A stretch of 56,874 nt of DNA from IMG/VR virus record IMGVR_UViG_3300049491_000539, positions 1 to 56,874 of that record. The stretch is one strand, 5' to 3'. The stretch is from a virus. Its lineage: Duplodnaviria > Caudoviricetes. The notes beneath the pieces were generated by a model. The model had not been told where the DNA came from. It made no database searches and saw only the letters and a program-made list of their open reading frames with translations. This document shows, in pieces, positions 456 to 30,377 of the stretch. Position 1 is the first letter of the stretch. The number at the start of each line of letters is the position of its first letter. The position numbers and the translations under genes are program-made.

Positions 456-2903
456 TCAATCAATAATTTCCCATAATCGCTCGTTCACAATGAAGTCCTT
501 CGCAGGTCGTCCTTCTTTATGATTTTCGCGATTAGGCCTTATCCACTTCAATTGAACGAGATGTGCAATTGCTTCTTCAAGAATGACGACATCGGTCTTT
601 GCTGAGATTCCTCTTATCCCCGCCTCACGCCGCATTTGTCGAAGGTTGAACTTATCAATGTCGTTCGACGCGATCCACGTTGCGATGATTTTTGCCATAT
701 GAACATCGGCACTCAGAATGCTGTGGCCGTAGACACGACGTTGCATCGGTTTAATATACTCTTCGCGAAAGCGGATAGCGCACTTAACGGCCTCAATTGA
801 GATCACGTCTGGCGCGTCATCTTCAAACTCATCTTGAGACCACCAGAGCATTTCGAGTATCAGCGCTATTCTAGCGACGTGGCCGTGCGCTTTACCGTAT
901 GCGCCTGAAAGTGTGGCTGGCACGTAGCGCTCGTCGAAGGTGCGTTGATTCACCCAGGCTCCAAAGGCAGCAAGCGCCTCGCGGCTGAACGGAACGCGAA
1001 TGGGTTCTTTGATCTCCCCATCAGCTGTGTGCATGGTCAACTCGGAAAGCCGCTGGATAGCCTCGCGCATTCGATTGGCGAAGGGTGCGTTGGCTTCGAA
1101 GGGACGGATGGTGTTCTCAGGCCAGAAAGGTATGAAGCGAGCCTGTAGACCGTCGTCTGAACTGTTGAGCATGTCAGTTAGACGCTCAGGCTGGATGCCG
1201 CCTAGGATGCCGACTGAGAAGTGAGGGATGCGAACGGGAACGCCGTTGTCCTTGACTCGGTCAATCACGTAGGGTCCGCCGCCGTAGGCTTCCAGCCACG
1301 CTGGCCGGTCAGAGCCGCTGTTATAGCGTGCGAGATTGGAATACCAGCCGCTCATTTCGTCACGAAAGTTCAGGAACCCTCTTGGATTACCCGCCAAAGC
1401 CCGCTGTAGGGCTTCCAGCGTGGCGTCAGTGAGGTAGGCGCGACGTTTCTGTGGTTCGGCTGGTGGAAGACAGTCAGCTGGCATTGGCGGCGGGTTCTCG
1501 CCCTTTTCAACAGTAGCGGCGGATATGGCTTCCCACTGTTTGCGTTTTATGTCGGCGATCTTCTTCTCGCCGGTCCACTGACGATGCCGCTCGATGTGTG
1601 ACGGGAGCCACATTTGCTCAAGATCAGACATGATTTTGACGAGAGGTCGAAAGGCTGGTGATTTGCTGGCGCTCGGCGGTCCAATGACCTGACACCAGAG
1701 GATCGGCGGCTCTGACCAACCTTCACGAACTTGAACCCACCTGGCGTTACCGATCACCGAACCTGCAATAGCCAACAGTGCGGCAGCGGCGTAGTCAACG
1801 GGTGCGGCTCCGGTCTTTGCTAAAGCCACCACTTCCTTTGCCCAAAAAGGGCCGAGAATATCCAGCGGGAAGTCTGCTGAGTCTTGTAGAACCTGATTGA
1901 GAATCGTCAGATCAGGGTCATCAATCCGCGTGTGTGACTTCTCGTCGTTTTGTTCTGATTCTGGTTCTTCCAGATCATCAAACTCGTCTTGGATGGTTAA
2001 CAGCTCGGCGCGGTAGTGAGCGTCCCGCGCTGCCTGAATGATCGTCGCCATGCGAATCGGGTTCTTGCGACCAAGTTTAAAGTGACGCCAGCTTTGGCGC
2101 TGAACGTCGCCGTCATACTTCTCTGATTTCTTCGAGAACTTGTTCCAGAGCTTGAATGCAGCCGAAGAACCTTCAAACTCGTGATGCAGCGCCATACCGA
2201 GATGAAGCCAACCGTCGCGGTCGTCGCACCAATGGTCTAACGGCAGATCACGAAGTGTTTCTTCCGCCTCCTCTAAGGTGATGCCAAGGATTTCAGAATC
2301 AAGCTCGTCTTCTTCACTTTCACCGACCAAATCTTCGATGATTCGGCTGGAAATAAGCGGCAAACCATCAAATTCTAGGTCAAACGCGCGCTCCCAACGG
2401 TATTTTTTGCCCGTTTCAGGATGGATTGAGGGTGGTATAGCGACTTGTTTTCCGGTGCCGAAAAGTTCAATTTCCCAGAACCTATGCTTCTTTCCATCTT
2501 TCCCGACGAACCGATCATCGCTGTAGGCGAGCTTTTTTGAAGGGAATTCACGATCCGTGACGAAATAAATGTGCCGAGATTCGCCACCTGAACCAGAAAT
2601 AACGATTGGAAACTTTGATATTTTGACCTTTTTGAACAGGTCTTTGAGACAATCCCAGGCTTCTTCCGCAAAATCAGCGTCACGAACGTCGAGATCAATA
2701 CAGTGAAGATACTTCCCGTCGATTTTTGACCACTTGCCGAGGCGAACTCCAACATTCATCCCGTCGCGATATTGTTGCTTGAGCGCGTCCAAACTGGCAA
2801 CAGGTTTCTTTGACCAGTCGTCGCCTATTGGTGCTTTTGATCGAGGTTTTAGCCAGTGGATGGCAAAACCGTCGTCAACGAGTGATTGGATTTCCTTGAT
2901 CAC
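456..2903 (-). CDS. Primase-polymerase (Prim-Pol + PriCT-2) fused to a DUF3987/YfjI-like P-loop domain
   Basis: N-terminal KAPIGDDW...NVGVRLG...IDLDVR...GGESRHIYF...QVAIPPSIHP; PriCT-2-like WLHLGMALH...W.KFS..SEKY; C-terminal GPPSASKSPA, DATLEAL, RDEMSGW, GGIQP, DDGLQARF. Confidence 0.85.
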   Translation of the reverse strand: MIKEIQSLVDDGFAIHWLKPRSKAPIGDDWSKKPVASLDALKQQYRDGMNVGVRLGKWSKIDGKYLHCIDLDVRDADFAEEAWDCLKDLFKKVKISKFPIVISGSGGESRHIYFVTDREFPSKKLAYSDDRFVGKDGKKHRFWEIELFGTGKQVAIPPSIHPETGKKYRWERAFDLEFDGLPLISSRIIEDLVGESEEDELDSEILGITLEEAEETLRDLPLDHWCDDRDGWLHLGMALHHEFEGSSAAFKLWNKFSKKSEKYDGDVQRQSWRHFKLGRKNPIRMATIIQAARDAHYRAELLTIQDEFDDLEEPESEQNDEKSHTRIDDPDLTILNQVLQDSADFPLDILGPFWAKEVVALAKTGAAPVDYAAAALLAIAGSVIGNARWVQVREGWSEPPILWCQVIGPPSASKSPAFRPLVKIMSDLEQMWLPSHIERHRQWTGEKKIADIKRKQWEAISAATVEKGENPPPMPADCLPPAEPQKRRAYLTDATLEALQRALAGNPRGFLNFRDEMSGWYSNLARYNSGSDRPAWLEAYGGGPYVIDRVKDNGVPVRIPHFSVGILGGIQPERLTDMLNSSDDGLQARFIPFWPENTIRPFEANAPFANRMREAIQRLSELTMHTADGEIKEPIRVPFSREALAAFGAWVNQRTFDERYVPATLSGAYGKAHGHVARIALILEMLWWSQDEFEDDAPDVISIEAVKCAIRFREEYIKPMQRRVYGHSILSADVHMAKIIATWIASNDIDKFNLRQMRREAGIRGISAKTDVVILEEAIAHLVQLKWIRPNRENHKEGRPAKDFIVNERLWEIID

Positions 2904-2920
2904 GGCATTCTCCCGTTGGG

Positions 2921-3172
2921 TCAGGAGATGACGGTGAATTCAAGCAGCTTCTTCTTTTTGATCTGACATCCGGCAATTTCCAGAATGGGCTTCACCTGCC
3001 TCGCTGGCAACTCGTTGGCGTCGAGCCATTTATAGACGGCTTGCCAAGTCACTTTGAGTTCGACTGCCAGCTTTCTGACGTTCAATTTACCTCTATCATT
3101 CGTGAAGTCGGGAAGCCCCGCTGCAAGCTCGTCGGATAGGCATGAAGCCTCAGTGTTAGTGCTGTTATTCAT
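2921..3172 (-). CDS. Cro-like helix-turn-helix regulator
   Basis: VRKLAVELKVTWQAVYKWL HTH; start moved to ATG 3172 after GAGG; divergent from the replication operon. Confidence 0.7.
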   Translation of the reverse strand: MNNSTNTEASCLSDELAAGLPDFTNDRGKLNVRKLAVELKVTWQAVYKWLDANELPARQVKPILEIAGCQIKKKKLLEFTVIS

Positions 3173-3224
3173 TACGGCCTCACGTTCTGATTTGGCCGGA
3201 CCATAGACGTGCAAAAATTAATAA

Positions 3225-3264
3225 TCAACTATTTGTTGACACTTCAACCAGAAAGTGGTTTTCA
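3225..3264 (+). promoter_or_regulatory. Palindromic operator TCAACTATTTGTTGA overlapping a TTGACA -35 element, plus a second degenerate copy
   Basis: Perfect TCAAC-N5-GTTGA at 3225-3239, TTGACA at 3236-3241 and a degenerate copy at 3244-3258, all in the divergent intergenic gap. Confidence 0.7.
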
Positions 3265-3310
3265 ATGTGAAGCCGGTCACGGCCCATGCAAACACAATTT
3301 GGAGAACACC

Positions 3311-3742
3311 ATGTCATCACTTGAACAGCGACTTGCCGAGAATACGGAAGCCTTGAAAGAGAACAACGAACTCATCCGCGCAATGTTGTCAGCCGCTGCC
3401 GCCACGACCGCGAAGCGTGCAACCAAAAAAACGGCGTCTGACGACGGCAAAGCACCCGCAGCTGCTGAAAAAGCTGCGGCAAAAGCACCAACCACCCGGA
3501 AGAAGACGAAGTTCTCTGAGACCGACGTGAAGGAAATCGCGGCGAAGTATCTCGATGTTGAAGACGAGACCGAGCACGCAGAGCGCAAGGAAAAGGCGAA
3601 GAAAGTTCCGGCGAAATACGGCGTGAAGAAGCTTGCAGAAATCCCCGAAGCTGACCGCGCCGAGGCGATCCAGATTTTCGAAATGTTGATCGCTGGCGAG
3701 GACTACGACTTCGACGGCGCTGAGGAAGACGACGAGATTTGA
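3311..3742 (+). CDS. Hypothetical replication-module protein (Ala/Lys-rich linker, acidic tail)
   Basis: GGAGA RBS then ATG 3311; SLEQRLAENTEAL N-terminus and KYGVKKLAEIPE C-domain resemble the gene preceding DUF2800 in Chi-like phages. Confidence 0.75.
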   Translation: MSSLEQRLAENTEALKENNELIRAMLSAAAATTAKRATKKTASDDGKAPAAAEKAAAKAPTTRKKTKFSETDVKEIAAKYLDVEDETEHAERKEKAKKVPAKYGVKKLAEIPEADRAEAIQIFEMLIAGEDYDFDGAEEDDEI

Positions 3743-3755
3743 TTCTCGTCTCGTA

Positions 3756-3786
3756 AGAAGCCCTAGCCGAAAGGCTGGGGTTTTCT
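3756..3786 (+). terminator. Stem-loop terminator/attenuator
   Basis: CCCTAGCC-GAAA-GGCTGGGG followed by TTTTCT. Confidence 0.65.
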
Positions 3787-3835
3787 GTTGAACGGTCCCG
3801 TGACCGCTTTACCGAAAACCCGCAGGTAAATTCAG

Positions 3836-5038
3836 TTGGCTGAACACGCAAGACTTTCACCTTCATCGGCCTCACGCTGGATGCGTTGCCCCGGCTCTGT
3901 GACGTTCATTGAGGCTGAGGAAATTGGCGATGAGTCTGGTGTTCCAGCGATGGAGGGAACCATTCTCCACTCGTTCTGCGAAACCTGCTTGCGGGATGAG
4001 GTTTCGCCCTTCGACCTGATAGGCGAGGTTCGCAAATACTCTGATTGTAACGATCACTTCAAGGATGGCGATCAGGACCACAGCTACGAACTCACTGAGG
4101 ACGATGCTGACCAAATTCAAGATGCGCTTGACCGGATTGATTCTATTGCGGGCAAATTGGTCATTGAACACAGGGTCAATTTGAAGCGCTGGATGCCGGG
4201 TCAATTCGGCACACTCGACATCGGAATAGTTGGCAAAAAGTGGATCACGATCTGGGATTGGAAGTGGGGATGGAACCCCGTCTCACCGGTTTTCAACGAA
4301 CAACTGATGACTTATGCGCTGGGGTTCTGGGATAATATTGCCCGTCATGAAAGCGATGCCACAAATTTCAGGCTGATTATTGAACAACCACGCATAAGCA
4401 GCGGCGGCGGTGTCTGGGAAACTACGCTCGACGAGCTTTCTGAGTTTGGCGCGAGGTTGAAGAAGCAAGCTGCAAAAGTGCTGGACGGGGCTGCCGAGCG
4501 CGTTCCTGGCGCTAAGCAGTGTGAGTATTGCCCCGGTGCAAAGAACATGTCTTGTCCGGAATACAACAAGTTTAACTACGATTTGGTGTGTCAGGACTTC
4601 GACGAGCTTGACGATCTCGCCTCGGCTGGTCTTCCGGCGCGAATGCCGCGATTCCTGACATCAGAGCGTCGCAGCTTCATTCTTGAAAACAGAGCGATGT
4701 TTGAAAAGTGGCTTGAGCGGATGCACGCTGAGGCTTTGGACGACGCGCTTAAAGGAAGACCCGTTCCGGGACTGAAAGCTGTCAGCGGACGAAATCCACC
4801 GCGCAAGTGGAAAGACGACGAAGCTGCCAAAGCCATGCTTACTGAGACGCTCGCGGAAGACGCTTGGAACAAAAAAATCATCTCACCGGCTCAGGCCGAG
4901 AAGATTCTCAGACCGTCAATTTGGGTGAAGGCGGATGAGATGGTCGACAAAGGAAAACCCAAACCAATCCTCGTTTCGGAGTTTGACAGTCGCGAACCAT
5001 TGCGAACCGTCATTGATGAATTCGACGATCTGGACTGA
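3836..5038 (+). CDS. DUF2800 Cas4-like PD-(D/E)xK exonuclease
   Basis: HARLSPSSASRWMRCPGS, EGTILH, FGTLD...IWDWKWG, QLMTYALG, C.YCP...C Fe-S cysteines. Confidence 0.9.
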   Translation: MAEHARLSPSSASRWMRCPGSVTFIEAEEIGDESGVPAMEGTILHSFCETCLRDEVSPFDLIGEVRKYSDCNDHFKDGDQDHSYELTEDDADQIQDALDRIDSIAGKLVIEHRVNLKRWMPGQFGTLDIGIVGKKWITIWDWKWGWNPVSPVFNEQLMTYALGFWDNIARHESDATNFRLIIEQPRISSGGGVWETTLDELSEFGARLKKQAAKVLDGAAERVPGAKQCEYCPGAKNMSCPEYNKFNYDLVCQDFDELDDLASAGLPARMPRFLTSERRSFILENRAMFEKWLERMHAEALDDALKGRPVPGLKAVSGRNPPRKWKDDEAAKAMLTETLAEDAWNKKIISPAQAEKILRPSIWVKADEMVDKGKPKPILVSEFDSREPLRTVIDEFDDLD

Positions 5039-8417: not shown

Positions 8418-8683
8418 TGCGCGAGTCTTACATAGTTTCAAAAGTCGTCGCGTTCGCTGAAAAACAAGGTTTCCTTCATAGAAAAGTCCTCTATGCCGGC
8501 CGAAAGGGCGCACCCGATGATTGGTTTTTTGGCGCTGGCGCTCGCCTTGAAATCATAGAGTTTAAGGCACCTGGAGAGCAGCCTGACGCTGTGCAAGAAC
8601 GTGAAATAGCTCGCCTTCGGAAGCTTGGTTTCAACATTCACGTCGTTGATGATGTGGATAAAGGCATAAAGATATTCTTATGA
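8417..8683 (+). CDS. VRR-NUC domain nuclease
   Basis: RES.I...GRKGAPD...IEFKAPG...Q.REI..LRKLGF..HVVD. Confidence 0.85.
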   Translation: MRESYIVSKVVAFAEKQGFLHRKVLYAGRKGAPDDWFFGAGARLEIIEFKAPGEQPDAVQEREIARLRKLGFNIHVVDDVDKGIKIFL

Positions 8684-10191
8684 GTCAGTTAGAGATCAAA
8701 AACCGTAAGTCACTTCGCAGAATTCAAAATTGGGGCGCTGAAAAGATTTACGATCAAGATATTGTCATCCTAGCTTGGGATATGGGTGCGGGAAAGACGG
8801 TTACAGTCCTCACGGCTTTGAGGGATTTGTTGGATGACTACAAAATCAACAAAGTGCTGATTGTCGCCCCGTTGTTGGTAGCCAAGGCAACATGGCCTGA
8901 CGAGATAGAGGAATGGCGTCACACACGCGTTCTCGACTACACGCTAATCCGATCTGAGGACGACGATGAAGATAATATAAGATGCTTTGAAGCCGTTAAG
9001 TCGTTCGTCAGATTTACGGGATTTCCGGCTACAGCTGCTGGCGTTATAGCCAAGCAAACGCTTACGCAGCATCGCGACAAAAAGCGCCGAGCAATGGCAA
9101 ACGATGACTCAGAGATTCACATCCTGAACAAAGAAGCTCTAGCTTGGTTGTGGGAGCACTTCAAAGAAGGAAAGACTTGGCCCTATGACATGATTGTGAT
9201 CGACGAAGCCAGCATGTTGAAAAATGCCAAACGCAGAACAAAAACCAAAGGGATAACGCGGTTCGGAGTTCTAGCCAAGGCCAGAAAATATGCAAAACGA
9301 GCAGTGCTCATGACAGGCACACCGGCTCCGAAGGGTCTGCAAAATCTTTGGGGCTTGGCCTACATCGCGGATTTGGGAGATCGATTGGGAAGCAGCAAGC
9401 ATCACTTTGAGCAGCGGTGGTTTGAGAAGGACTATATGGGTTACAATCTCACACCTAGGCCGCACGCGCACGATGAGATCATGGGGCGTCTTAAGGACAT
9501 TATGTTCAGCCTCGCGCCAGAGGACTACGCCGAGCTTCCAGGTGTTGTGACCAACAAGATTGAAGTCGAGCTACCGCCACGGGTGATGGGTGAATATCGG
9601 AAATTTGAAAGGACGTTGGTTTCTCAAATTTATGACGTTGAGGCAGTCAGCCGAGGCGTTCTCACGAACAAACTTTTGCAGTTTTCAAACGGCAGCATGT
9701 ATCAGGAGGACGGAAAAGACGTTTGGATTCACGACGAGAAGCTGGCAGCCCTCGAAGCGATTTCAGACGAAGCGATGGGTGATCCAATGCTCATCGCCTA
9801 TAGTTTCAAATTCGATTTAGCGAGAATATTGAAGAGATTTCCGAAGGCAGAAATTTTCGGTCGTGGCGACGTTCGAAGAATGAAGCAGCGTTGGAACGAC
9901 GGTTATATTACTCACATGATCGCTCACCCTGACTCAATTGGTCACGGTCAGAACGTTCAATTTGGTGGAAATATCTCTGTCTGGTATGGTCTCACTCATG
10001 ATCTGGAACTATATTTGCAGTTCAACAAGCGCTTAGATCGACCCGGGCAAACAAGAGTGGTTTTCAATCATCACATCATTGCCAAAGACACACATGATGA
10101 AGACATTTTGCCGCTTTTGTCGGGGAGAAAAGTAACTCAAGACGCCGTTCTCGAGTCGACCGTCGTTAGGCTCGGTAGAATCAGGAATTAA
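8680..10191 (+). CDS. SNF2-family helicase
   Basis: DMGAGKT, VAPLLVA, VIDEAS, MTGTP, GHGQN, RLDRPGQ. Confidence 0.92.
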   Translation: MSQLEIKNRKSLRRIQNWGAEKIYDQDIVILAWDMGAGKTVTVLTALRDLLDDYKINKVLIVAPLLVAKATWPDEIEEWRHTRVLDYTLIRSEDDDEDNIRCFEAVKSFVRFTGFPATAAGVIAKQTLTQHRDKKRRAMANDDSEIHILNKEALAWLWEHFKEGKTWPYDMIVIDEASMLKNAKRRTKTKGITRFGVLAKARKYAKRAVLMTGTPAPKGLQNLWGLAYIADLGDRLGSSKHHFEQRWFEKDYMGYNLTPRPHAHDEIMGRLKDIMFSLAPEDYAELPGVVTNKIEVELPPRVMGEYRKFERTLVSQIYDVEAVSRGVLTNKLLQFSNGSMYQEDGKDVWIHDEKLAALEAISDEAMGDPMLIAYSFKFDLARILKRFPKAEIFGRGDVRRMKQRWNDGYITHMIAHPDSIGHGQNVQFGGNISVWYGLTHDLELYLQFNKRLDRPGQTRVVFNHHIIAKDTHDEDILPLLSGRKVTQDAVLESTVVRLGRIRN

Positions 10192-10259
10192 CCAACCTAT
10201 TGACGCGGATACCTTTCATGGTTAAATGTCAACTTAATGTTGATATTTTAGAGGGTAAA

Positions 10260-10955
10260 ATGCTCGATAATCCCCGAAAAATTTTGGATAAGGAATTTGC
10301 CAAACGCTTGAATATGGCATGTGACAGCAACCCACATTGTCCGCCACTTCACCAAGGCAGACTAACTTGGCTTCGGAACGAGTTAAAGAGGCAGATAGGC
10401 TCAAAAGTCAGCGTCTCGATCGAGACGGTTCGAAAGTGGTTTTCAGGCGATTCAAAACCACGAACTGACAAGCTCAGACACATTGCACAGTTGTTAAAGA
10501 TTGACGAAGCTTGGTTGTCGCTCGGCACTATTCCTGAGCTTGAACTTGAGGAAAAGAAGGCCCGCGCTTTTTCAGTTGATGGAGCGGTCAGCGTCGTCAT
10601 AGGCGTGCTACAAATGAACGGTGCAAATTGTGCAGTCCCAGAAACGGATCACACCACCGATCTCCACATGATATACAAGGGAAAGCACCGCTCGTTGATA
10701 GTGTCGTTGGGGCGGCAGGTGGAGGGAAAATTCAAATTTTCAGTCAAAAATGACTATTTCATGAGTGCCGTAATAGCGGTGGTTCAGTTAGGTTTCAGCA
10801 AGTTTGATCTTTATATTTTACCAACAGAAATGATCCGATCTGCGGGACGGCCAAAGGGTGGGTATATTGAGGTTCTGGCAGAGAAGTCGGGGCAGGATTT
10901 TAAGGTTGGCGATCAAACTCTGATTAAGTTGAAGTCTCCCACTCAAATAGCGTGA
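10260..10955 (+). CDS. XRE-family transcriptional repressor (putative CI)
   Basis: FAKRLNMAC...VSIETVRKWFSGDSKPR...IAQLLKIDEAWLSLG HTH; ATG 10260 after GAGGG; operator palindrome at 10229-10243 upstream. Confidence 0.75.
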   Translation: MLDNPRKILDKEFAKRLNMACDSNPHCPPLHQGRLTWLRNELKRQIGSKVSVSIETVRKWFSGDSKPRTDKLRHIAQLLKIDEAWLSLGTIPELELEEKKARAFSVDGAVSVVIGVLQMNGANCAVPETDHTTDLHMIYKGKHRSLIVSLGRQVEGKFKFSVKNDYFMSAVIAVVQLGFSKFDLYILPTEMIRSAGRPKGGYIEVLAEKSGQDFKVGDQTLIKLKSPTQIA

Positions 10956-11022
10956 TTTGTCATCTTTTAGTTGATTAAATTTCACCCATGTGGCAGTTCT
11001 CCATATTCAGTGGAGAACGATC

Positions 11023-12534
11023 TTGGTTGTCACTTATGGATCAGTTTGTAGCGGTATAGAAAGCGCGTCCATAGCTTGGGAACCTCTCGGCTGGCAACCA
11101 CTATGGTTCTCCGAAATCGAGCCATTCCCTTGCGCAGTTCTCAAACAACATTGGCCCGATGTCGTCAATTTGGGAGATATGCGACTTCTGCCGAAGCTTG
11201 TCTTGAATGGTGAAATTGACGCTCCTGATATTCTTGTCGGCGGCACACCGTGCCAAGGATTTTCCGTTGCCGGCCGGCGTGGTGGTTTGAAAGACCCACG
11301 TGGTCAACTGACGTTATCTTATGTGGAGTTGGCAGATGCAATTGACCAAAAGCGAGAACAGCGCGGGGACGAGCCTTGTGTTATTGTCTGGGAGAATGTC
11401 CCGGGCGTTTTCAGTGATAAAGGAAACGCCTTTGGCCACTTCCTTGCGTCCCTTGTCGGCGAAATCGTCGCGCTGGAACCACCAGGGGGAAGATGGTCAA
11501 ACGTTGGTTATGTGTCTGGACCCAAGAGATCAGCGGCGTGGATCGTCAAGGATGCCCAATATTTCGGAGTGGCCCAACGACGCCGCCGTGTGTTCGTTGT
11601 CGCAAGTGCTCGTGAGGGGTTCAACCCCGAAGAAGTATTGTTTGAGTTCGACGGCAGCCGTAGGGACGATGCACCGGAACGAACGCCGTGGCGCGAAGAT
11701 GCCAGCACAATTGAAGGAAGCGTTGATGGAAGTGGCGGGACCATTGTGGCAGCAAGAATGGTCGGCTTTGGCGGTTATGTGGAAGACGATATTGCTTCAA
11801 CATTGAAGTCACGAGATTACAAAGACGTCACAGACCTCATCGCATTCAACCAGTCTGGTTTTGCGCATTTTGTAGAGTCAGATGTCTGCTCCCCGATCCG
11901 ATCAGGTAACGCAAATGGAGACGGTGACGCGAGGTCGAGCACGCTATTGGCAATAGCCATTCAGGAGCGTGCCAGCAGCACGAATATGAGCGCTGGGCCG
12001 CAGGGGAAAGGTTGGCAGGAGGATGTGAGCTACACGCTGGAATCCCGTCACTCGGTGCAGTCTGTAGCCTATGCTTTTAGGGATGAAATGACACCCAAGT
12101 TCTCTTACGAGGTCACACCAACTTTGTTGACGACAAGTCCAACAGGCGGCGGTCATCCGATGCCAGTAGCCTTCAATTCACGAGAAGACACAGTTGTCTA
12201 TGGTGATGTGTCAGGGACGCTCGCGTCATCGAGTCCTCAAGCTCAGACGATTTATTTTGAGGGCGCTGGAAAATGGATAGTGCGCCGACTGATGCCTATT
12301 GAATGCGAGCGCCTCCAAGGATTTTCCGATCTACACACGTTAGTTTCATTTAAGGGGAAACTTGCTTTAGATAGTCCCCGCTATAAAGCGATTGGAAACA
12401 GCAAGGCTGTGCCGGTCGTTAGGTGGATTGGCCGTCGGATTCAACGAATGATGAGACAACTTGAGACAATAAAATACGGGAAACCGCCGTTTGAGATTTT
12501 ATTTGAAAAATTGACTGACGTTGAAAGTTTTTGA
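11023..12534 (+). CDS. C5 cytosine DNA methyltransferase (alpha chain) with a long repetitive variable region
   Basis: SVCSGI, GGTPCQGFS, ENVPG, QRRRRVF, RRLMPIECERLQGF, YKAIGNS; TTG start after GGAGA. Confidence 0.92.
   Translation: MVVTYGSVCSGIESASIAWEPLGWQPLWFSEIEPFPCAVLKQHWPDVVNLGDMRLLPKLVLNGEIDAPDILVGGTPCQGFSVAGRRGGLKDPRGQLTLSYVELADAIDQKREQRGDEPCVIVWENVPGVFSDKGNAFGHFLASLVGEIVALEPPGGRWSNVGYVSGPKRSAAWIVKDAQYFGVAQRRRRVFVVASAREGFNPEEVLFEFDGSRRDDAPERTPWREDASTIEGSVDGSGGTIVAARMVGFGGYVEDDIASTLKSRDYKDVTDLIAFNQSGFAHFVESDVCSPIRSGNANGDGDARSSTLLAIAIQERASSTNMSAGPQGKGWQEDVSYTLESRHSVQSVAYAFRDEMTPKFSYEVTPTLLTTSPTGGGHPMPVAFNSREDTVVYGDVSGTLASSSPQAQTIYFEGAGKWIVRRLMPIECERLQGFSDLHTLVSFKGKLALDSPRYKAIGNSKAVPVVRWIGRRIQRMMRQLETIKYGKPPFEILFEKLTDVESF
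11336..11806 (+). CDS. Alternative-frame ORF inside the MTase; putative M.EcoHK31I-type beta polypeptide
   Basis: Open +1 frame with GGAG RBS (11325) and ATG 11336; contains NISEWPNDAAVCSLSQVL...KYCLS...RRGAKMPAQLKEAL. Confidence 0.65.
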   Translation: MQLTKSENSAGTSLVLLSGRMSRAFSVIKETPLATSLRPLSAKSSRWNHQGEDGQTLVMCLDPRDQRRGSSRMPNISEWPNDAAVCSLSQVLVRGSTPKKYCLSSTAAVGTMHRNERRGAKMPAQLKEALMEVAGPLWQQEWSALAVMWKTILLQH

Positions 12535-12797
12535 CGGTATTTTTGACGGTATTTTACAAAATAATCAACTTTTCACAATAAAATCAATGCTTATGGTGAA
12601 TGTCGGGTGCGCCACCAAACTCAAACATGTTGTATCACTTTGTCCAAAACTAACAGAATTTAGTAATTTTTTCAGTGATTTCTCCTGATATTCAAACTAT
12701 TTTGTAAAGCCAGTTCCCATACTGTCTCATTGCGTCTCAGAAAATTTACGGTATTGTTGGCGGTATCAGAAAATATCAATCAAAGTGATACCGTCAT
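12528..12797. mobile_element. attP region: integrase arm-type repeats flanking a core that resembles a tRNA 3' end
   Basis: TTTTGACGGTAT tandem at 12529-12552, TTTACGGTAT/TTGGCGGTAT at about 12745-12766, inverted ATACCGTCA at about 12789-12797; core TGTCGGGTGCGCCA at 12601-12614. Confidence 0.8.
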
Positions 12798-13982
12798 ATG
12801 GCCTTAAATGACTTGCAGATTCGAAACATCAAACCGACTGGTAAACAGTTCAAGGTTCATGACGAGCGCGGGCTTTTTCTACGAATCAAACCCAATGGCT
12901 CCAAACTTTGGCAGATGGACTATCGATTTGCCGGTCTTCGAAAGACCATTTCATTCGGCGCATACCCGGAGCGAACGTTGGCTGAGGCCCGTGAAAAACG
13001 AGATCAGGCCCGCAAGCTAATCACCAACGACGTTGACCCTTTAGAACATAAAAAATCCAGCCGAGTTACCGTCGAAATGGGTGAAACTTTTGGCGATATT
13101 GCTGTTGAATATTTAGCTCAATGTGAGCGCGATCTGTCGCCAATAACCTACTTCAAATATGATTGGCTTCTTCGAAAATTGGCGAAGGCTCTGTGGAAAA
13201 TTCCTATTGATGAAGTAACTTCAAAAGACATTCTTGGCATACTTTTGGCGGTGGAAAATTCCGGTCGCAGGGATACGGCAATCACGTTGCGCTCAAGAAT
13301 TGGAGGTGTCTTCCGTTTCGCCATAGCGCGTCAGAGAGCCAAGTTTGATCCAACACAAGCGATTAAAAATGCTCTCAGGCCACCCAAGGTGAAGCACAGG
13401 GCTGCGCTTGTGGAAAGACGACCATTTGGCGGCTTACTAAGGTGTATAGACGAGTATGACGGTTGGCCGACATTGCGTCACGCTCTCAGGTTTGAAGCGC
13501 TTACTTTCCCTCGACCTGTTGAATTACGCAAGGCTGAATGGGTCGAATTCGACCTTGGTAATAAGGTCTGGCACATCCCGGAAGAGCGGATGAAGGTGCG
13601 TCGACCACACGATGTGCCTTTGTCTCGACAAGCCATTGACGTTCTATTGAATGTCAAGATCATCAGTGGCGCGGGTAGATTGGTGTTTCCGTCAATACGA
13701 TCAGCTGACAAAATACTTTCTGAAAACGCGCTTAACTCTGCTCTTCGCCGAATGGGGTTCACCAAGGATGAAGCCACGGCGCATGGGTTCAGGTCGAGCG
13801 CGAGCACCATATTAAATCAAGCTGGCTACCGCAGTGAAGTCATAGAAATGCAGCTTGCACATATCGACCACAACGAAGTCAGGCGATCCTATAACCGTGC
13901 TCAATATTGGCCTGAGCGGGTGAAGATGATGCAGAGTTGGGCCGATCTCATTGATGAAATGAAAAAGCCAACCGCCGATTAA
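12798..13982 (+). CDS. int: P4-type tyrosine integrase
   Basis: Arm-binding domain GLFLRI.PNGSKLW...YRF.G...FGAYP..TLAEAR; catalytic R (PRPVELR), K (ERMK), HGFR, QLAH, YNRAQY. Confidence 0.95.
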   Translation: MALNDLQIRNIKPTGKQFKVHDERGLFLRIKPNGSKLWQMDYRFAGLRKTISFGAYPERTLAEAREKRDQARKLITNDVDPLEHKKSSRVTVEMGETFGDIAVEYLAQCERDLSPITYFKYDWLLRKLAKALWKIPIDEVTSKDILGILLAVENSGRRDTAITLRSRIGGVFRFAIARQRAKFDPTQAIKNALRPPKVKHRAALVERRPFGGLLRCIDEYDGWPTLRHALRFEALTFPRPVELRKAEWVEFDLGNKVWHIPEERMKVRRPHDVPLSRQAIDVLLNVKIISGAGRLVFPSIRSADKILSENALNSALRRMGFTKDEATAHGFRSSASTILNQAGYRSEVIEMQLAHIDHNEVRRSYNRAQYWPERVKMMQSWADLIDEMKKPTAD

Positions 13983-25484: not shown

Positions 25485-28400
25485 ATGAAGGATGTAAAAC
25501 TCGTCATCCGCGCCAAAGACGACGCTTCCAGAGCGATTGACGCCACCACTGCCGCACTACTCGAACTCAAGAACCTCCAAAACGCAATTACCAAATCTGC
25601 TGGTAAAACAGACACTGTGATTGGTCAGTTGACCGAGCAATACGGTCGTCTGAACAAAGAACTCTCGACCGTTTCAGCGATAGGAAAAGTCTCTCAGGAG
25701 TTCGATAAGGCGGCTTCATCCATTGGCCGGATGCAGGAAGAAACGCGATCTGCGGCGGAAGATTTTGCCAAATATGCGCGTGAGCTTGAACAAGCCGCAA
25801 ACAAGACCGCTCGGTTGAAGGGTGAGCAGGAAGCCGCCTCTAAGTCACTTAAAGATCAGAAGGCTGTCATATCTGATCTTCGACGTGAACAGTCTGCCTC
25901 AACAAAAGAGATTAAGAAAGCTGAGGCTGCGCTAGCTAAGCTGCAAACGAAACTCTCGAAAGGCACGTCTTTACCATCTCCAAAGTTGGCTGCTGGCTCA
26001 TTCGAAACATTTCTGAGAAGTGATGTTGAGAATGCAAAGCGCGCTGCTGATGATGTGTCAAAAGCACTCTCGAAGGAAGTTGCCGAACAAACACGTTTGT
26101 CTGAGTCTTCCCGCAATTTGGCGGTTGCGATCAAGGTCGCCGTGGACAATCAGAATAAGCTTCAACTGACCACAAACCGCTCGTCTGAGGTTCTGTCAAA
26201 AAGCAATGAATCGCTCAAGGCGGCTCGGTCTGAATATGGTAAGATTGAAGGTGCTGCCAAAGACGCAGGTCTCGCACTCTCGTCTTTGGCAGTAAGTGAG
26301 CAAAAGCTTTCCGAAGACACTAAGCTGCTTGATGCCGATCTAAAAAAGACCGCTACCACCTTACAAGCTTTACAGCGCTACTCGTCTGGTGGGGGAACAT
26401 TTGCAGACCCAAAAACAGCGGCAGCGATTCGATCTCAGCGCGAAGAAATATCCAAGACAGAGGTAACTTGGCGTCTGTTGCAAGAAGAAGTTCGCCGCCT
26501 CGCCGCCGAGATGAAGGCTGCGGGTGGACCAACGCAAGAGCAAGCCGCCGCATTTAAGCAGTTGGTTGGCGCAAGCCGTCAAGCTAAGCAGGAATATCAG
26601 AGCCAGATCGCTACACTTGCCAAATTGCAGGGAAGCGCCAGAACCACGTTTGGAGAGTTTTCACGCGGATCAGCAGAACTCAGAAAATACATAACTGATT
26701 GGAAGAGGCTGAACGATCAGGCGTCCCAGACGCCAGCCAAGTTCAACGGACTCAAGTCACTTATTTCTCCGTTCTATGGCGAGTCACGCAAGGCTCTGTC
26801 CTTGTTGCAGCGTATTCGTGGTGAAGTGCTCGCGCTCACGTCGACCTACATTGGTCTTTACGGTGTCATTAACAACGCGTCCGCTGTCACTAAGGCTCAA
26901 CAAACCTTGGACGCCTCGAAGAACCGGCTTGGCGCTGTGTTCAATCAGGATCAAGGTAAGACGGCTGACGAGCTTCGGTTCTTGCAGGGCGAAGCGGATC
27001 GCCTCGGCATTTCGTTCGGCACGTTGTCAGATCAATACACAAAGTTTCTTGTCGCCGCTGATGCTGCTGGTTTTACGCTGTCCAACACCCGTAAGATTTT
27101 CCTTTCAGTGGCCGAAGCTGGTCGCGTCAACGGACTGTCGAATGAGCAGCTGGAAGGCACGTTCAACGCCCTTCAACAGATCATATCCAAGGGTAAAATT
27201 CAGGCGGAAGAACTCAGAGGACAGTTGGGTGACCGACTTCCTGGCGCTGTTCAAATCCTCGCCAAGGCGCTAGGAGTCACGACCGGTGAACTTGAGAAGA
27301 TGTTGGAGGCTGGCGATGTTAGCGCTACCCAGACGACGTTGCTCAAGTTTGCGAAGACGCTGGATGAAAAATTTGGTTCTCAGTTGCCGGCCGCTTTGCG
27401 CAACACGGCTGCCGAAATTGGCAGATTTCAAAACAACCTTTTCAATGCTCAGCTGCTCGTCGCAAAGGGTGGCTTCGTTGATGCTCTGAACAATGGCCTT
27501 CGTGAACTCGACAAGTTTTTCAAAAGTGAAGACGGGCGTTCTTTTTTCCTGAGCTTGGGCGCAGCGGCTGGAAACTTTATTGACGTTTTAGCTCTCGTTC
27601 CTGCCAACATCGGCTCAATCAGCACGATCATTCAAGGTCTTATAGCGCTCAAGCTGGCGTCCTATTTCCTGAACGTCGCTGAGTCGATGGGGATTACGCG
27701 AATTGGCGCAAAGGCGGCCGCTGACGCGCTGTTACAAACCAAGGTCCAAGCGGTTAGTTTTGCCTCGGCGTCAAAAGCGGTTGCGGGTGGAATCGGGGTA
27801 TTCGGGAATAATCTGAAACTGTTGAAAGCAAATCTTCTTTCGACGGTTTCTACACTGACGCTTGCAAAGGTTGGAACGACAACGCTGAACGGCAGCTTCA
27901 TTGTGCTGCGAGCAACGGCGGCGACATTAACCGCGACTATGCGCGGCCTCTGGACGGCTGTTGGCGGCTTCCCGGGCCTCATTATCAGCGCAGTGTCGTA
28001 TCTGGCATTTGACCTACTTGGATCGCTGGCAACCAGTGTGGATGACACCACAACGGCGTTGGACGAACAATCTCGTATAATAGATGAAGTTGCCGCTGCT
28101 TATCGTCGCGCCAAGGGTGAGGCTGTTGACTACGCCAAGGAAGTAAAAGGCGCGACGACGATTGAACTTAAAGTCAAAATTGGAAAAGCCCAAGAGGAAA
28201 TACAGGCGCTTCGTCAAAGTGTGGAGGCTCCTGTTGATGCACTCGGCGTCGATAAATTAGGAACTGTTAAAAAACTCCAAGAAGTAATTTCTGCATTCAA
28301 AGCGGGGACAATTTCAGCTGACGACTTCAAAAAAGAAATAAACTCAATTGCTGAGACTGACCCAAAGCTAAACACAAGGCTGGTCGTCGATCTGATAGCA

Positions 28401-30377
28401 GTTGCTGATAAGACCAAATCCGCCGAAGACAAATTCAAGACTTATGAAGCCGTTCTTGCCGTCGTTAGTGGAACCGCAACTGAGGCTCAAAAGTCGCTTC
28501 TTGGCTTGAAGGAAACCACTGCCGAAGTCGCTGATTCAATGGATGGCGGCAAGACGGCTTTGGATAGTTATACCTCTGCAATCGACAAGCTAAAAGCGAA
28601 GGTTCCAGAACTCGCCGTTGAGTTGAAGAAGCTCAAAGACCTTTCCGAGATTGATGCGGCATACAAGACTGCTGTCGAAAACGCCACGACGGTTGGCCAA
28701 GTTTACGCCGCCAATGCCGCCCGCACCCAAGCCGTCACAGCGGTCATGTCTGAGGCTGACACGAAAGTATTCCAAGAGATCGCGGCGAATACGAAGGTCA
28801 CAAAAGACCTGTTCGACACGATTCACAAGGCTGAGAATTTCCGTCCGAAAGCCTACGACGACGGCTACGGAACTCAGACGATTGGCTTCGGCTCGACGCT
28901 TGTAAGCGGGCGTAAGGTTCAAGCCGGTGACACGATCACTCGTGACGACGCTATGCGTCAGGCCGTCAATGACATTGCCAAGATCGTCGCTCAGATTGAA
29001 GCCTTGGTCAAAGTTCCACTTGCTGACAATCAGCTAAAAGCACTCGTCTCATACGCCTACAATGCTGGCATAGGTTCTCTGGCAAGAGACGGTATTCTCA
29101 AGAAGCTCAATGCTGGTGACTACGGCGGCACAGCTGACGCGATACGAAACGGCGTAGTCACGTCCGGTGGCGTGTTCTCTCAAGCTTTGAAAAACCGGCG
29201 TGCTGACGAAGCCAACTTGTTTGCTTCCGGCAACGATAGCCCAGAAATTTTGAAATCAAAGCTTGAGGCCGAGCAAAAGATCACCGAGGAAAAACAGAAG
29301 CAATCAGAACTCACTCAGCAGACTATCTCGGATAGCGAGTTTGAACTTCAACAGGGTGAACTTATTGCGGCGGGTAAAGGTCGTCAGGCAGCAATTGAAG
29401 CAGCTATCCGTCAAGCTCGCCAGCAGAACAAAGACATTTCCTCGGAAGAGATTGCCAAGATAACGGAGATCACTGGAAAGCTCTACGATCAGAAAAACGC
29501 GACCAACGGGATCAAGGAAGCGGAAGAACGTGTCAACGAGCTTTACTTGCTGCGCCAGCAACTTATCGAAAATATTGAGTTCGCAAAATCAGCGGGAGAC
29601 ACGACGAAAGGATCAGCGCTGCAAACTCAGCTGGCAAGTGTCAATTCTGAGCTTGATGCAGCCGTCGCAAAGTCCATTCAACTATATCAGACCCTTGGTG
29701 GTCCTGGCGCTGATCTTGCCGTCGCAAAACTTGAGGCAATCAAGAATCAAGTCCAGCAGACCGGTGAAAAGAGCATCGTCACTGGCGATCAGATCAATCA
29801 GATGTTGGCTGGTGGATTGTCAAACGCCTTCGACCGTTTTGCTGAAGCCATAGCCAATGGTGAAAATACCATAGAATCGCTCAAGAATGCGTTTTTGCAG
29901 TTCGCTGCGGACTTCCTTCGTGAAATTGCTCAGATGATTATCAAACAAGCGATCCTGAACGCGTTACAGGGCGTCCTTGGGGGCGGCGGTGGTGGGATTG
30001 GTGGTATCATAGCCAACGGCATCAACGCGCTCATCAGACACGACGGGACGGTGAGTCACGGCACTACAGGCCCAACCCGCTCTGTCTCGGCTGCGCTCTT
30101 CACGAATGCTCTGCGCTACCACGGCGGCGGTATAGCTGGTCTCAAGCCAAGCGAAGTTCCGACGATCCTCAAAAAGGGTGAGGTCGTTGATCCTGGTGAC
30201 GGCTCGATATTCAGCAAAGTCTTTGGCGGTGGCGGTGGAAATTCTCAGCCGAAGATCATCAACGCCTTTGACGCATCAAGCTTCTTGGATGAAGCGCTGT
30301 CGAGCAAAGTGGGAGAAAAGGCGATTCTCAATTTTGTGCGCGGCAACAGCGGTGCATTCAAAGCGGCGTTGGGCTGA
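25485..30377 (+). CDS. Tape measure protein with an internal lysozyme-like domain
   Basis: 1630 aa helical protein; tape-measure motif [27 protein letters not shown]; lysozyme-like [11 protein letters not shown].G..TIGFG...AYNAG...RRADEA. Confidence 0.93.
   Translation: [1630 protein letters not shown]

What the first reader, a model, noticed from the sequence alone, without database searches (positions are those of the whole stretch)
11336..11806. Gene within a gene: alternative-frame subunit inside the C5 methyltransferase
Seen: a roughly 156-codon +1-frame ORF with its own RBS spans motifs VI-VIII of the MTase and encodes CSLSQVL...KYCLS...RRG..MP..L.EAL. Knowledge: M.EcoHK31I needs a beta polypeptide encoded in an alternative frame within its alpha gene; from recall that peptide has a similar TLSQVLE...ERG..LP segment in the same register. 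Many single-chain C5 MTases carry an L.DIL....KY.LS segment after motif VIII, which this main frame lacks. Inference: a dual-coded, two-chain phage MTase that standard annotation would miss.
Basis: partly seen in the sequence, partly recalled or inferred. Interest (0 to 1): 0.7.

Follow-up and report, generated by a model that had tools for sequence, protein, structure and literature searches.

The report
Conserved hidden gene inside phage methyltransferase
A second, out-of-frame gene sits inside this phage's DNA cytosine methyltransferase gene; it is kept by selection in related phage enzymes, including that of phage P1, is missed by standard annotation, and probably makes a small partner protein for the enzyme.

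Summary
A 156-codon +1-frame ORF (ATG 11336 to TGA 11806, GGAG 7 nt upstream) lies inside the C5 methyltransferase gene 10990-12534. Its length alone proves nothing: the window holds 8 nested open runs of 140 codons or more. The comparative evidence is strong. Among homologues found through the main frame only, 69 of 71 evaluable viral loci and 11 of 11 metagenome loci keep the +1 frame open. In the last 30 codons of a ~50-residue C-terminal core, +1 dN/dS is 0.55 (0.41-0.69), while the main frame evolves neutrally (1.20). The start codon is held by a synonymous choice (NAT in 46 of 48, background 42%), and the 85-codon leader avoids stops. Phage P1 dmt carries the same ORF, unannotated.

The main chain has all motifs including IX, so this is not an M.EcoHK31I-type split. 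A complex model places the core against motifs VIII and IX (0.79 against 0.00 for controls). This supports binding but does not show it. The window's own copy is intact but unusually diverged. My verdict is a real nested gene and a probable accessory subunit, a new variant of the rare two-chain C5 methyltransferases.

The parts
10990..12534 (+). Main-frame C5 cytosine DNA methyltransferase ORF (514 aa from GTG 10990). All conserved motifs lie in one chain.
   Evidence: ORF. (PF00145, E 1.1e-34, 2 stretches). (Foldseek best matches M.HaeIII 1dct_A at E 8e-10, M.HhaI, DNMT3A/DNMT1).
11248..11256 (+). Motif IV Pro-Cys-Gln (catalytic Cys), main frame
   Evidence: Read. P74 C75 Q76 are invariant in alignment A4.
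11325..11328 (+). GGAG, a Shine-Dalgarno-like word 7 nt upstream of ATG 11336
   Evidence: In the family, an SD word of 4 nt or more lies at -16..-5 of the homologous ATG in 18 of 45 sequences, against 9% of all positions. A word of 3 nt or more is found in 40 of 45, against 38%.
11336..11806 (+). Nested +1-frame gene (156 codons plus TGA)
   Evidence: Conserved in homologues. ATG 11336 is the family-conserved start at -85 codons from the core.
11336..11590 (+). Leader of the nested gene (85 codons). Its sequence is dictated by main-frame motifs VI-VIII.
   Evidence: +1 dN/dS is 0.76 (0.53-1.01), while main-frame dN/dS is 0.42. AF2 pLDDT is below 60 over residues 1-85. The leader is depleted in +1 stops: 0.11 observed against 1.49 expected per sequence, and 56 of 61 sequences have none.
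11383..11391 (+). Motif VI Glu-Asn-Val, main frame. It reads as Gly-Arg-Met-Ser in the +1 frame.
   Evidence: E122 N123 V124 are invariant in A4.
11575..11589 (+). Motif VIII Gln-Arg-Arg-Arg-Arg, main frame
   Evidence: Here nucleotide variability peaks at main-frame codon position 3 (0.13/0.62/0.21).
11591..11740 (+). Conserved core of the nested protein (50 codons from the Cys of C.LSQVL to ..AL..VA)
   Evidence: Mean pairwise aa identity is 0.65 in +1 against 0.51 in the main frame. For codons 20-34 the values are 0.75 against 0.53, and for codons 35-49 they are 0.44 against 0.18. +1 dN/dS is 0.51 (0.38-0.66). AF2 pLDDT is 87-95 from residue 100. An HMM of the 66-column core alignment (A1; 14 codons before the core Cys to 2 codons past the 50-codon core; window 11549-11746) finds 4308 cluster representatives at E<=1e-3.
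11741..11806 (+). Tail of the nested ORF, longer here than in most relatives, ending in TGA
   Evidence: the window runs 71 codons from core start to stop; most relatives run 49-60. AF2 models it as a continuation of the last helix, residues 124-155.
11650..11740 (+). Main-frame linker that shares its nucleotides with core codons 20-49
   Evidence: Main-frame dN/dS is 1.20 (0.96-1.52). The main-chain AF2 model has pLDDT below 50 from residue 213 of the 501-aa construct. The main frame is still kept open, with 0 of 51 sequences carrying a stop.
12280..12324 (+). Motif IX (V-R-R-L-M-P-I-E-C-E-R-L-Q-G-F) in the main frame
   Evidence: R419 R420 L421 P423 E425 C426 R428 L429 are invariant in A4. 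Predicted to contact the nested protein.
12388..12420 (+). Motif X (A-I-G-N-S-K-A-V-P-V...) in the main frame
   Evidence: G456 N457 S458 are invariant in A4.

Best explanation
A genuine protein-coding gene is nested in the +1 frame of a phage C5 cytosine methyltransferase gene. Ribosomes start independently at ATG 11336 (GGAG 7 nt upstream) and read through an 85-codon leader whose sequence is a by-product of main-frame motifs VI-VIII. They then translate a conserved, helical core of about 50 residues (C.LSQVLE ... KY.LS ... GILRRAE.RGK.LP..L..AL). That core shares its DNA with the end of motif VIII and with an unconstrained, disordered linker of the main chain.

Shown: the ORF, its conservation, purifying selection on the core, a selected start codon, and stop avoidance in the leader. 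Inferred: the small protein docks on the methyltransferase at the junction of motifs VIII and IX, the hinge between the catalytic and target-recognition parts. There it would act as an accessory chain that completes, stabilises or tunes the enzyme, much as detached fragments of other C5 methyltransferases reassemble. It may be the displaced equivalent of the segment that follows motif VIII in single-chain enzymes. The window's own copy is intact but atypically diverged.
For: (1) Conservation under main-frame-only ascertainment. 69 of 71 evaluable viral loci (80 fetched) keep the +1 frame open for 45 codons or more from the core start. So do 11 of 11 evaluable metagenome loci and 15 of 17 of the first set, which holds 5 lineages.

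(2) In 61 non-redundant sequences the most variable codon position switches. Under motif VIII it is main-frame position 3 (0.13/0.62/0.21). In core codons 20-34 it is +1 position 3 (0.55/0.54/1.09), and likewise in codons 35-49 (1.31/1.05/1.71).

(3) An OLGenie-like test gives, for core codons 20-49, +1 dN/dS 0.55 (0.41-0.69) and main-frame 1.20 (0.96-1.52). The internal controls (leader and motif VIII) show no significant +1 constraint.

(4) The main frame is nevertheless kept open (0 of 51 with a stop), while +2 is closed in 51 of 51.

(5) The start ATG at -85 codons depends on a synonymous T: NAT in 46 of 48 sequences against 42% elsewhere. SD words are enriched upstream. An alternative ATG at -13 is not conserved (33 of 61).

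(6) The leader is depleted in stops: 0.11 against 1.49 expected.

(7) The HMM of the core finds 4308 cluster representatives at E<=1e-3 and 2848 at E<=1e-10.

(8) The complex model gives ipSAE 0.79 (runs 0.78/0.80/0.79), with the best of 3 controls at 0.00. The mark was reached by 58 of 80 solved complexes and 2 of 110 mismatched pairs. The runs share at least 87% of contacts, and the partner's pLDDT is at least 74. The interface comprises main-chain residues 172-182, 205-218, 415-429, 448, 462 and 466.

(9) One phage contig (L079) has two tandem methyltransferases, each with its own nested ORF.

(10) The precedent is M.EcoHK31I.
Against: There is no expression evidence of any kind (RNA ends, ribosome profiling or peptides). 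The main chain carries all ten motifs and could be fully active alone.

Binding rests on a model only, and my own alignments were used, so the calibration holds only roughly.

Natural knock-outs exist. A TGA lies inside the core in L002/L010 and L154, L168 has an internal deletion, and L107 and L135 have diverged second halves. The product is therefore dispensable in some settings.

The window's own core is the second-lowest scorer against the family HMM (98.4 bits against a median of 130.6). It departs at 10 columns that are at least 80% conserved, which fits relaxed constraint in this lineage.

No Pfam, PHROG or PDB sequence family and no informative fold match explains the core. The likeness to the canonical post-motif-VIII segment is weak (P=0.073). 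The sequences compared are related, so the counts are not independent events.
Confidence: 0.55

Rival explanations
1. The nested gene is real and translated, but its product does not serve as a structural part of the enzyme. It could be a regulator or inhibitor of the methyltransferase (timing or dosage of methylation), or it could have a separate phage function such as DNA binding or counter-defence, with the overlap merely coupling expression.
For: All the selection evidence fits equally well. The main chain has every catalytic motif. The core is a basic helical hairpin with no methyltransferase family match. Natural knock-outs are tolerated.
Against: The complex model places the core on conserved motif VIII/IX surfaces, with controls at 0.00. 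Each of two tandem methyltransferases in L079 keeps its own copy, which argues for a partner-specific role. Among the loci examined and the database hits read, the core was seen only overlapping a methyltransferase gene, never as a free-standing gene.
Confidence: 0.25
2. The family's nested gene is real, but the copy in this window is a decaying relic that no longer makes a working protein.
For: The window core scores 98.4 bits against a family median of 130.6. That is below L135 and L107, whose second halves are clearly lost. At 10 columns conserved in at least 80% of members it differs, and at 8 of these it carries residues seen in no other of 60 members. Its tail is unusually long.
Against: The ORF is fully open. 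Only 0.5% of synonymous shuffles leave this stretch stop-free. ATG 11336 and a full GGAG are kept. The complex model was run with the window's own sequences and scored 0.79. The main chain is also on a long branch, since no relative above 63-70% identity was found, so co-divergence is possible.
Confidence: 0.15
3. The core is not made from an internal start. Instead a +1 ribosomal frameshift in the main frame yields a truncated enzyme (motifs I-VIII, or I-VI) ending in the core.
For: Database proteins exist that join main-frame motifs I-VI to the +1 frame, for example P0201, named by a source as a 252-aa DNA cytosine methyltransferase. Three of them join near a G-run.
Against: The junctions differ among these proteins, as expected of DNA-level frameshift mutations. 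A frameshift near motif VIII would not need a stop-free 85-codon leader, a conserved ATG or an SD word. No conserved slippery site was seen.
Confidence: 0.04
4. The ORF is a chance open frame, and the conserved +1 peptide is only a shadow of main-frame constraint.
For: Within the window the length is unremarkable. Parts of the +1 peptide are indeed shadows: SG.(M/T)S mirrors motif VI and PNISEWPND mirrors motif VIII. The KY.LS string shares its nucleotides with the conserved main-frame VLFE.
Against: In core codons 20-49 the main frame evolves neutrally while +1 is constrained, and variability peaks at the +1 wobble position. The synonymous T that makes the start codon is conserved in 46 of 48 sequences. 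The leader avoids stops.
Confidence: 0.02

Closest known systems
M.EcoHK31I (two-chain C5 methyltransferase; beta encoded in another frame inside the alpha gene)
   Same: A small polypeptide is encoded wholly inside the methyltransferase gene in a different reading frame. Much of the N-terminus of EcoHK31I beta can be removed with activity kept (in vivo up to 50 residues, and 67 when fused to zinc fingers), so the functional part is C-terminal (passages of PMC2836561). Here too the leader is unconstrained and the C-terminal core is constrained.
   Different: EcoHK31I alpha lacks motif IX and beta supplies it. Here the main chain has motif IX (12280-12324), and the nested product has no PF00145 match. 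Sequence likeness could not be tested. A requirement for activity is shown for EcoHK31I and untested here. The present case is a large phage and prophage family, not a single enzyme.
M.AquI (C5 methyltransferase split between motifs VIII and IX into two polypeptides)
   Same: The break or overlap lies in the variable region after motif VIII (passage of PMC3404938). Rare relatives here (L112, L190) have exactly such a split: a main frame stopping after motif VIII, and a +1 ORF carrying core, recognition region and motifs IX-X. Database proteins such as P0010, P0037 and P0063 show the same.
   Different: In the window, and in all 65 core-ascertained viral loci where both motifs were located, the main frame runs unbroken from motif VIII to IX. 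The split forms look like occasional frameshift variants: 1 of 71 viral loci and 1 of 12 metagenome loci.
Fragment complementation of monomeric C5 methyltransferases (M.BspRI, M.BsuRI, M.HhaI, M.SssI)
   Same: Detached pieces of C5 methyltransferases can assemble into active enzyme in the cell (passage of PMC3404938). This makes a trans-supplied hinge piece physically plausible.
   Different: Those are engineered fragments of one chain. Here a natural, separately initiated, out-of-frame product would add to a chain that already has all motifs.
Phage P1 Dmt (bifunctional Dam-like / C5 methyltransferase)
   Same: Its C5 module belongs to the same family. It carries the same nested +1 ORF of 162 aa at L178 2787-3275, with an intact core.
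   Different: P1 Dmt is fused to an adenine methyltransferase module. The P1 RefSeq record lists no CDS inside dmt.

Membership tests
C5 cytosine DNA methyltransferase (Pfam PF00145): main chain | Pfam model above the gathering score | tested here: met
   PF00145 scores 120.8 bits against a cut-off of 22, E 1.1e-34.
C5 cytosine DNA methyltransferase (Pfam PF00145): main chain | Motifs IV (PCQ), VI (ENV), VIII (Q.R.R), IX and X in one chain and in canonical order (motif names and consensus recalled from the literature) | tested here: met
   Read. The residues are invariant in 47 homologues.
C5 cytosine DNA methyltransferase (Pfam PF00145): main chain | Fold of the catalytic domain | tested here: met
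   Foldseek gives 1dct_A at E 8.1e-10, followed by M.HhaI and DNMT3A/DNMT1, with 177 matches at E<=0.001. Model residues 213-411 are low confidence.
M.EcoHK31I-type two-chain C5 methyltransferase | Second polypeptide encoded in another frame wholly within the large-subunit gene | tested here: met
   The ORF 11336-11806 (+1) lies inside 10990-12534. It is conserved and under selection.
M.EcoHK31I-type two-chain C5 methyltransferase | Large subunit lacks motif IX; small subunit supplies it | tested here: not met
   The main chain has motif IX at 12280-12324. The nested product has no PF00145 match at E<=1.
M.EcoHK31I-type two-chain C5 methyltransferase | Both chains required for methylation | not testable with these tools
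   Only a complex model is available: 0.79 against controls at 0.00.
M.EcoHK31I-type two-chain C5 methyltransferase | Sequence homology of the small chains | not tested
   No EcoHK31I sequence was reachable. Lee et al. 1995 is not held, and supplements are closed.
M.AquI-type split C5 methyltransferase | Main gene broken between motifs VIII and IX into two ORFs | tested here: not met
   The window's main frame is continuous, as it is in 65 of 65 viral loci where both motifs were found. Only L112 and L190 are split.
Functional same-strand overlapping (nested) protein-coding gene | Alternative frame kept open across homologues found without reference to it | tested here: met
   69 of 71, 11 of 11 and 15 of 17.
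Functional same-strand overlapping (nested) protein-coding gene | Purifying selection on the alternative frame beyond what the main frame imposes | tested here: met
   For the core, dNN/dNS is 0.51 (0.38-0.66). For codons 20-49 the main frame is at 1.20. The codon-position switch supports this.
Functional same-strand overlapping (nested) protein-coding gene | Conserved start codon and ribosome-binding signal | tested here: met
   NAT in 46 of 48 sequences against 42% background. SD words of 4 nt or more in 18 of 45 against 9%.
Functional same-strand overlapping (nested) protein-coding gene | Direct evidence of translation | not testable with these tools

The most novel reading that the evidence does not exclude
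A very large family of phage and prophage C5 cytosine methyltransferases, P1 Dmt among them, are in fact two-chain enzymes. The segment that follows motif VIII in ordinary single-chain enzymes has been displaced into the +1 frame. It is made as a separate small protein from an internal start and is supplied in trans to the hinge between the catalytic and recognition parts. If so, thousands of annotated 'single-gene' methyltransferases lack half of their description, and activity, specificity or timing depends on an unannotated nested gene.
Probability: 0.35. Interest if true: 0.85.

Novelty: new variant of a known kind. Interest (0 to 1): 0.78.

Why it matters
Well-supported long same-strand nested genes are rare in bacteria and their phages. 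Annotation pipelines discard them by design. This one is conserved across a large methyltransferase family (4308 cluster representatives match the core) and is present but unannotated in the textbook phage P1.

If the product is a subunit or regulator, studies that clone, mutate or codon-optimise these methyltransferases will silently alter a second protein. This matters for methylome work, for evading restriction during transformation, and for phage engineering. It also gives a directly testable case of how an overlap evolves: the main frame is neutral exactly where the nested frame is constrained. The question can be settled in E. coli with P1 using silent mutations.

Tried and rejected
(1) ORF length as evidence: rejected. 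Shuffles and the window-wide count of 8 nested runs show that length is unremarkable.

I used the search for related loci instead.

(3) Family look-ups for the nested product found nothing. Pfam gave nothing for 4 nested-frame products at E<=1: the window's, L001's, and P0001 and P0074 from the protein library. PHROGs gave nothing for the window and P1 copies, and one weak hit for L001's copy (phrog_16143, E 0.0044). The PDB sequence profile search gave 0 hits at E<=10.

(4) Fold searches with the nested-protein model were uninformative. Foldseek found no match at E<=0.001. VIA-align wide had a best Z of 5.0, only generic helical hairpins. The first try met a busy machine. This shows neither a new fold nor absence of relatives.

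(5) I tried to build a profile of canonical Dcm-like enzymes to test homology of the core to the post-motif-VIII segment. The search returned only relatives at 78% identity or more, so I abandoned it. Only the single-sequence hhalign hint remains.

(6) A nearer start codon at -13 (M-P-N-I-S) is present in only 33 of 61 sequences, close to codon-usage expectation. Rejected as the conserved start.

(7) 'Type 2' proteins (core fused in frame to recognition region and motifs IX-X; 26 of the 150 best database hits) were first read as the ancestral or Rosetta-stone form. DNA of L112 and L190 shows them to be main-frame genes broken by a frameshift. They are over-represented among called proteins because nested ORFs are normally not called. 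I therefore did not use them as evidence of interaction.

(8) Programmed frameshifting: the junctions of chimeric database proteins differ from one another, so no programmed site is supported.

(9) The metagenome scan for close relatives of the window's gene had a best hit of 63% identity. No lineage-specific selection test for the window's own copy was therefore possible.

(10) Literature. Full-text searches, and a term search inside PMC8788219 (zero occurrences), found no report of a nested ORF in C5 methyltransferases other than EcoHK31I. Subscription journals, REBASE and closed supplements were not searched, so earlier description cannot be excluded. Lee et al. 1995 (PMC306636) is not held.

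Full report
WHAT IS THERE. The window is a virus record. Around the finding it encodes an SNF2-type helicase (8680-10191), a helix-turn-helix protein (10200-10955), a C5 cytosine DNA methyltransferase (10990-12534, 514 aa; PF00145, E 1.1e-34) and a tyrosine integrase (12798-13982). In the +1 frame of the methyltransferase gene an open run of 164 codons extends from 11312 to the TGA at 11804-11806. It has ATGs at 11321 and 11336. From ATG 11336 the ORF is 156 codons, and GGAG lies 7 nt upstream at 11325-11328.

IS IT MORE THAN CHANCE IN THIS WINDOW? No. Shuffling synonymous codons gives a +1 open run of 164 codons or more in 1.8% of trials, and such a run in any of the five alternative frames in 11%. 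The window contains 8 nested open runs of 140 codons or more, and this is the fourth longest. The case rests on comparison with homologues.

COMPARATIVE EVIDENCE. Seventeen homologous loci were found through main-frame peptide patterns. They represent 5 lineages and include a Clostridiales genome bin with only 23% main-frame identity over the region. Fifteen keep the +1 frame open over the same stretch. The other two, L002 and L010, share one sequence and have a TGA inside it.

The +1 peptide after motif VIII is much better conserved than the main-frame peptide made from the same nucleotides. To avoid selecting on the +1 frame, I searched viral contigs with an alignment of the main-frame N-terminal domain only (A2). 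Of 80 loci, 71 could be evaluated, and 69 keep the +1 frame open for 45 codons or more from the core start with the motif recognisable. The two exceptions are L154, with a TGA at the same codon as L002, and L168, with an internal deletion. L107 and L135 are open but have diverged second halves. The metagenome scan added 11 of 11 evaluable loci.

A search seeded with the +1 peptide kept the best 80 of 454 confirmed viral stretches. My regular expressions located the core in 76 of these and both motifs VIII and IX in 65. In all 65 the core lies in +1 relative to motif VIII, and the main frame runs unbroken from VIII to IX.

SELECTION. I used 61 non-redundant, main-frame-ascertained sequences. 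Four of 65 were dropped for a one-codon register difference. Nucleotide variability peaks at main-frame codon position 3 under motif VIII (0.13/0.62/0.21). It peaks at +1 position 3 in core codons 20-34 (0.55/0.54/1.09) and 35-49 (1.31/1.05/1.71). Amino-acid identity is 0.75 (+1) against 0.53 (main frame) for codons 20-34, and 0.44 against 0.18 for codons 35-49. The peptide-ascertained set gave the same picture.

An OLGenie-like count of differences at sites classed by their effect in both frames gives these ratios:
- Core codons 20-49: +1 dN/dS 0.55 (bootstrap 0.41-0.69), main frame 1.20 (0.96-1.52).
- Core codons 0-19: both frames constrained (0.48 and 0.59).
- Leader: main frame only (0.42), +1 0.76 (0.53-1.01).
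- Motif VIII: main frame only (0.21), +1 0.89 (0.23-4.53, not significant).

Distances were not corrected for saturation, and the pairs are not independent.

The main frame is nonetheless kept open through the core (0 of 51 with a stop). The +2 frame is closed in 51 of 51. Both frames are therefore read.

START AND LEADER. The first in-frame ATG lies exactly 85 codons before the core Cys in 39 of 61 sequences, and an ATG is present there in 45 of 61. It corresponds to window 11336. It arises from an Asn/Asp codon followed by Ala in the main frame and needs the synonymous T. NAT is used in 46 of 48 sequences that have Asn/Asp at that site, against 42% NAT for Asn/Asp codons elsewhere in the same slices. 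The two NAC sequences have an ATG three codons downstream.

SD-like words of 4 nt or more lie at -16..-5 in 18 of 45 sequences against 9% of all positions, even where the main-frame residues differ (V-E, V-G, C-E, V-R). The 86 leader codons carry 0.11 +1 stops per sequence against 1.49 expected from synonymous shuffles, and 56 of 61 sequences have none. A nearer ATG at -13 is present in only 33 of 61 and is not conserved. Independent initiation at the upstream ATG is thus the best-supported mode of expression. A frameshift near motif VIII would need none of these features.

WHAT THE PRODUCT LOOKS LIKE. AlphaFold2 with 58 homologues gives low confidence for the leader and pLDDT 87-95 from residue 100. 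Helices span 88-94, 105-118 and 124-155. Pfam, PHROGs and PDB sequence profiles do not recognise it, and fold searches return only generic helical hairpins.

The core profile matches 4308 cluster representatives at E<=1e-3. The near-length hits are mostly singleton 'hypothetical protein' calls. That is what one expects of a nested ORF that gene callers usually suppress.

Some longer hits join the core in frame to the recognition region and motifs IX-X (26 of the best 150). The DNA of two such loci (L112, L190) shows main-frame genes broken by a frameshift shortly after the core. I treat these as occasional variants, not as the ancestral state and not as evidence of interaction. Other hits join main-frame motifs I-VI to the +1 frame at varying points. 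These too look like DNA frameshifts.

THE MAIN CHAIN. All ten motifs are in the main frame. Its model matches M.HaeIII, M.HhaI and the DNMTs. In the AlphaFold2 model, residues 1-212 and 412-496 of the 501-aa construct are confident and 213-411 are not. The structured part ends about where main-frame constraint ends and +1 constraint takes over. The nested core is overprinted on the tail of the catalytic domain and on a disordered linker.

HOW IT PROBABLY WORKS. A complex model of the main chain with residues 72-145 of the nested protein scores ipSAE 0.79 (runs 0.78, 0.80, 0.79), against 0.00 for the best of three controls. The mark was reached by 58 of 80 solved complexes and 2 of 110 mismatched pairs. 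The runs share at least 87% of contacts, and the partner's pLDDT is at least 74. My own alignments were used, so the calibration holds only roughly. The contacts are main-chain residues 172-182 (motif VIII region), 205-218, 415-429 (motif IX), 448, 462 and 466. The model supports binding but does not show it.

In L079, two tandem methyltransferases each keep their own nested ORF, which fits a partner-specific role. The only hhalign alignment between the core profile and E. coli Dcm falls on Dcm 309-334, the L..LL....KY.LT segment after motif VIII. At P=0.073 it is a hint only.

My best reading (0.55) is a small accessory chain that docks at the hinge between motifs VIII and IX and completes, stabilises or tunes the enzyme. 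The chief rival (0.25) is a real gene with a regulatory or unrelated role.

THE WINDOW'S OWN COPY. It is intact, with the conserved ATG and a full GGAG. Its core, however, is the second-lowest scorer against the family HMM (98.4 bits, median 130.6). It differs at 10 columns conserved in at least 80% of members, and at 8 of these it carries residues seen in none of the other 60. No close relative was found. I therefore cannot tell co-divergence with its long-branched main chain from incipient decay, and I give decay 0.15.

COMPARISON WITH WHAT IS KNOWN. I read passages of two papers, PMC2836561 and PMC3404938. They state that M.EcoHK31I beta lies entirely in another frame of the alpha gene, and that alpha has motifs I-VIII, X and the recognition domain while beta has motif IX. 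They state that much of the N-terminus of beta can be removed. They also state that M.AquI is split between motifs VIII and IX, and that fragments of monomeric C5 methyltransferases can complement.

The present case shares EcoHK31I's gene architecture and the pattern of a dispensable leader with a functional C-terminus. It fails EcoHK31I's defining feature, because the main chain here has motif IX. It is not an AquI-type split either. It is best called a new variant of the two-chain C5 methyltransferase idea. It is found in a large phage family including P1 dmt, whose RefSeq record lists no CDS inside dmt. My full-text searches found no description of it. Subscription journals, REBASE and supplements were not searchable.

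VERDICT. The nested gene is real for the family (about 0.9). Its role as a methyltransferase partner is plausible but rests on a model. The function of this window's copy is uncertain. Interest 0.78.

Noticed in passing
L178 2787-3275 (phage P1, NC_005856.1, inside dmt 2486-4750 of the locus): P1 dmt carries the same nested +1 ORF (162 aa, core intact). The RefSeq feature table shows no CDS inside dmt.
   Followed up: partly
L068 895-2550: One family member has a long insertion, apparently an intein, between the Pro-Cys of motif IV and the following Gln. The flanks read GGTPC ... HNCQAFS.
   Followed up: no
L079 666-2003, 2017-3975 and 3801-4508: Two complete C5 methyltransferase genes lie in tandem, each with its own nested +1 ORF (820-1293, 2171-2719). 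A third ORF has motifs IX-X only.
   Followed up: partly
L002/L010 and L154, core codon after G-I-L-R: The same Arg codon of the core is a TGA in two separate lineages, while the peptide downstream stays conserved. This could be a recent CGA-to-TGA knock-out or a read-through site. Not resolved.
   Followed up: no
P0201, P0195, P0202 (database proteins); window about 11484-11492: Proteins of 246-252 aa, one named DNA cytosine methyltransferase by a source, are chimeras of main-frame motifs I-VI and the +1 frame. Three of them join near the P-P-G-G codons, where the window has a run of five G. This may be a mutational hot spot.
   Followed up: no
L191 and L192 (298-aa C5 methyltransferase of another family): The +1 frame of this unrelated small methyltransferase reads strings typical of other phage methyltransferases (LLPTP..., NP.F.EW.MG.P.G), from recall of such motifs. 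It may be a frameshifted gene or a second dual-coded case. Not examined.
   Followed up: no
window 26713-27270 (+) inside 25485-30374 (+); window 37822-38709 (-) inside 36776-40048 (+): Other long nested open runs in the window: 186 codons on the same strand inside a 1630-codon ORF, and 296 codons antisense inside a 1091-codon ORF. They were not compared with homologues.
   Followed up: no
window 8680-13982: The methyltransferase sits between an SNF2-type helicase plus an HTH protein upstream and a tyrosine integrase downstream. This is a temperate-phage early or accessory region.
   Followed up: no
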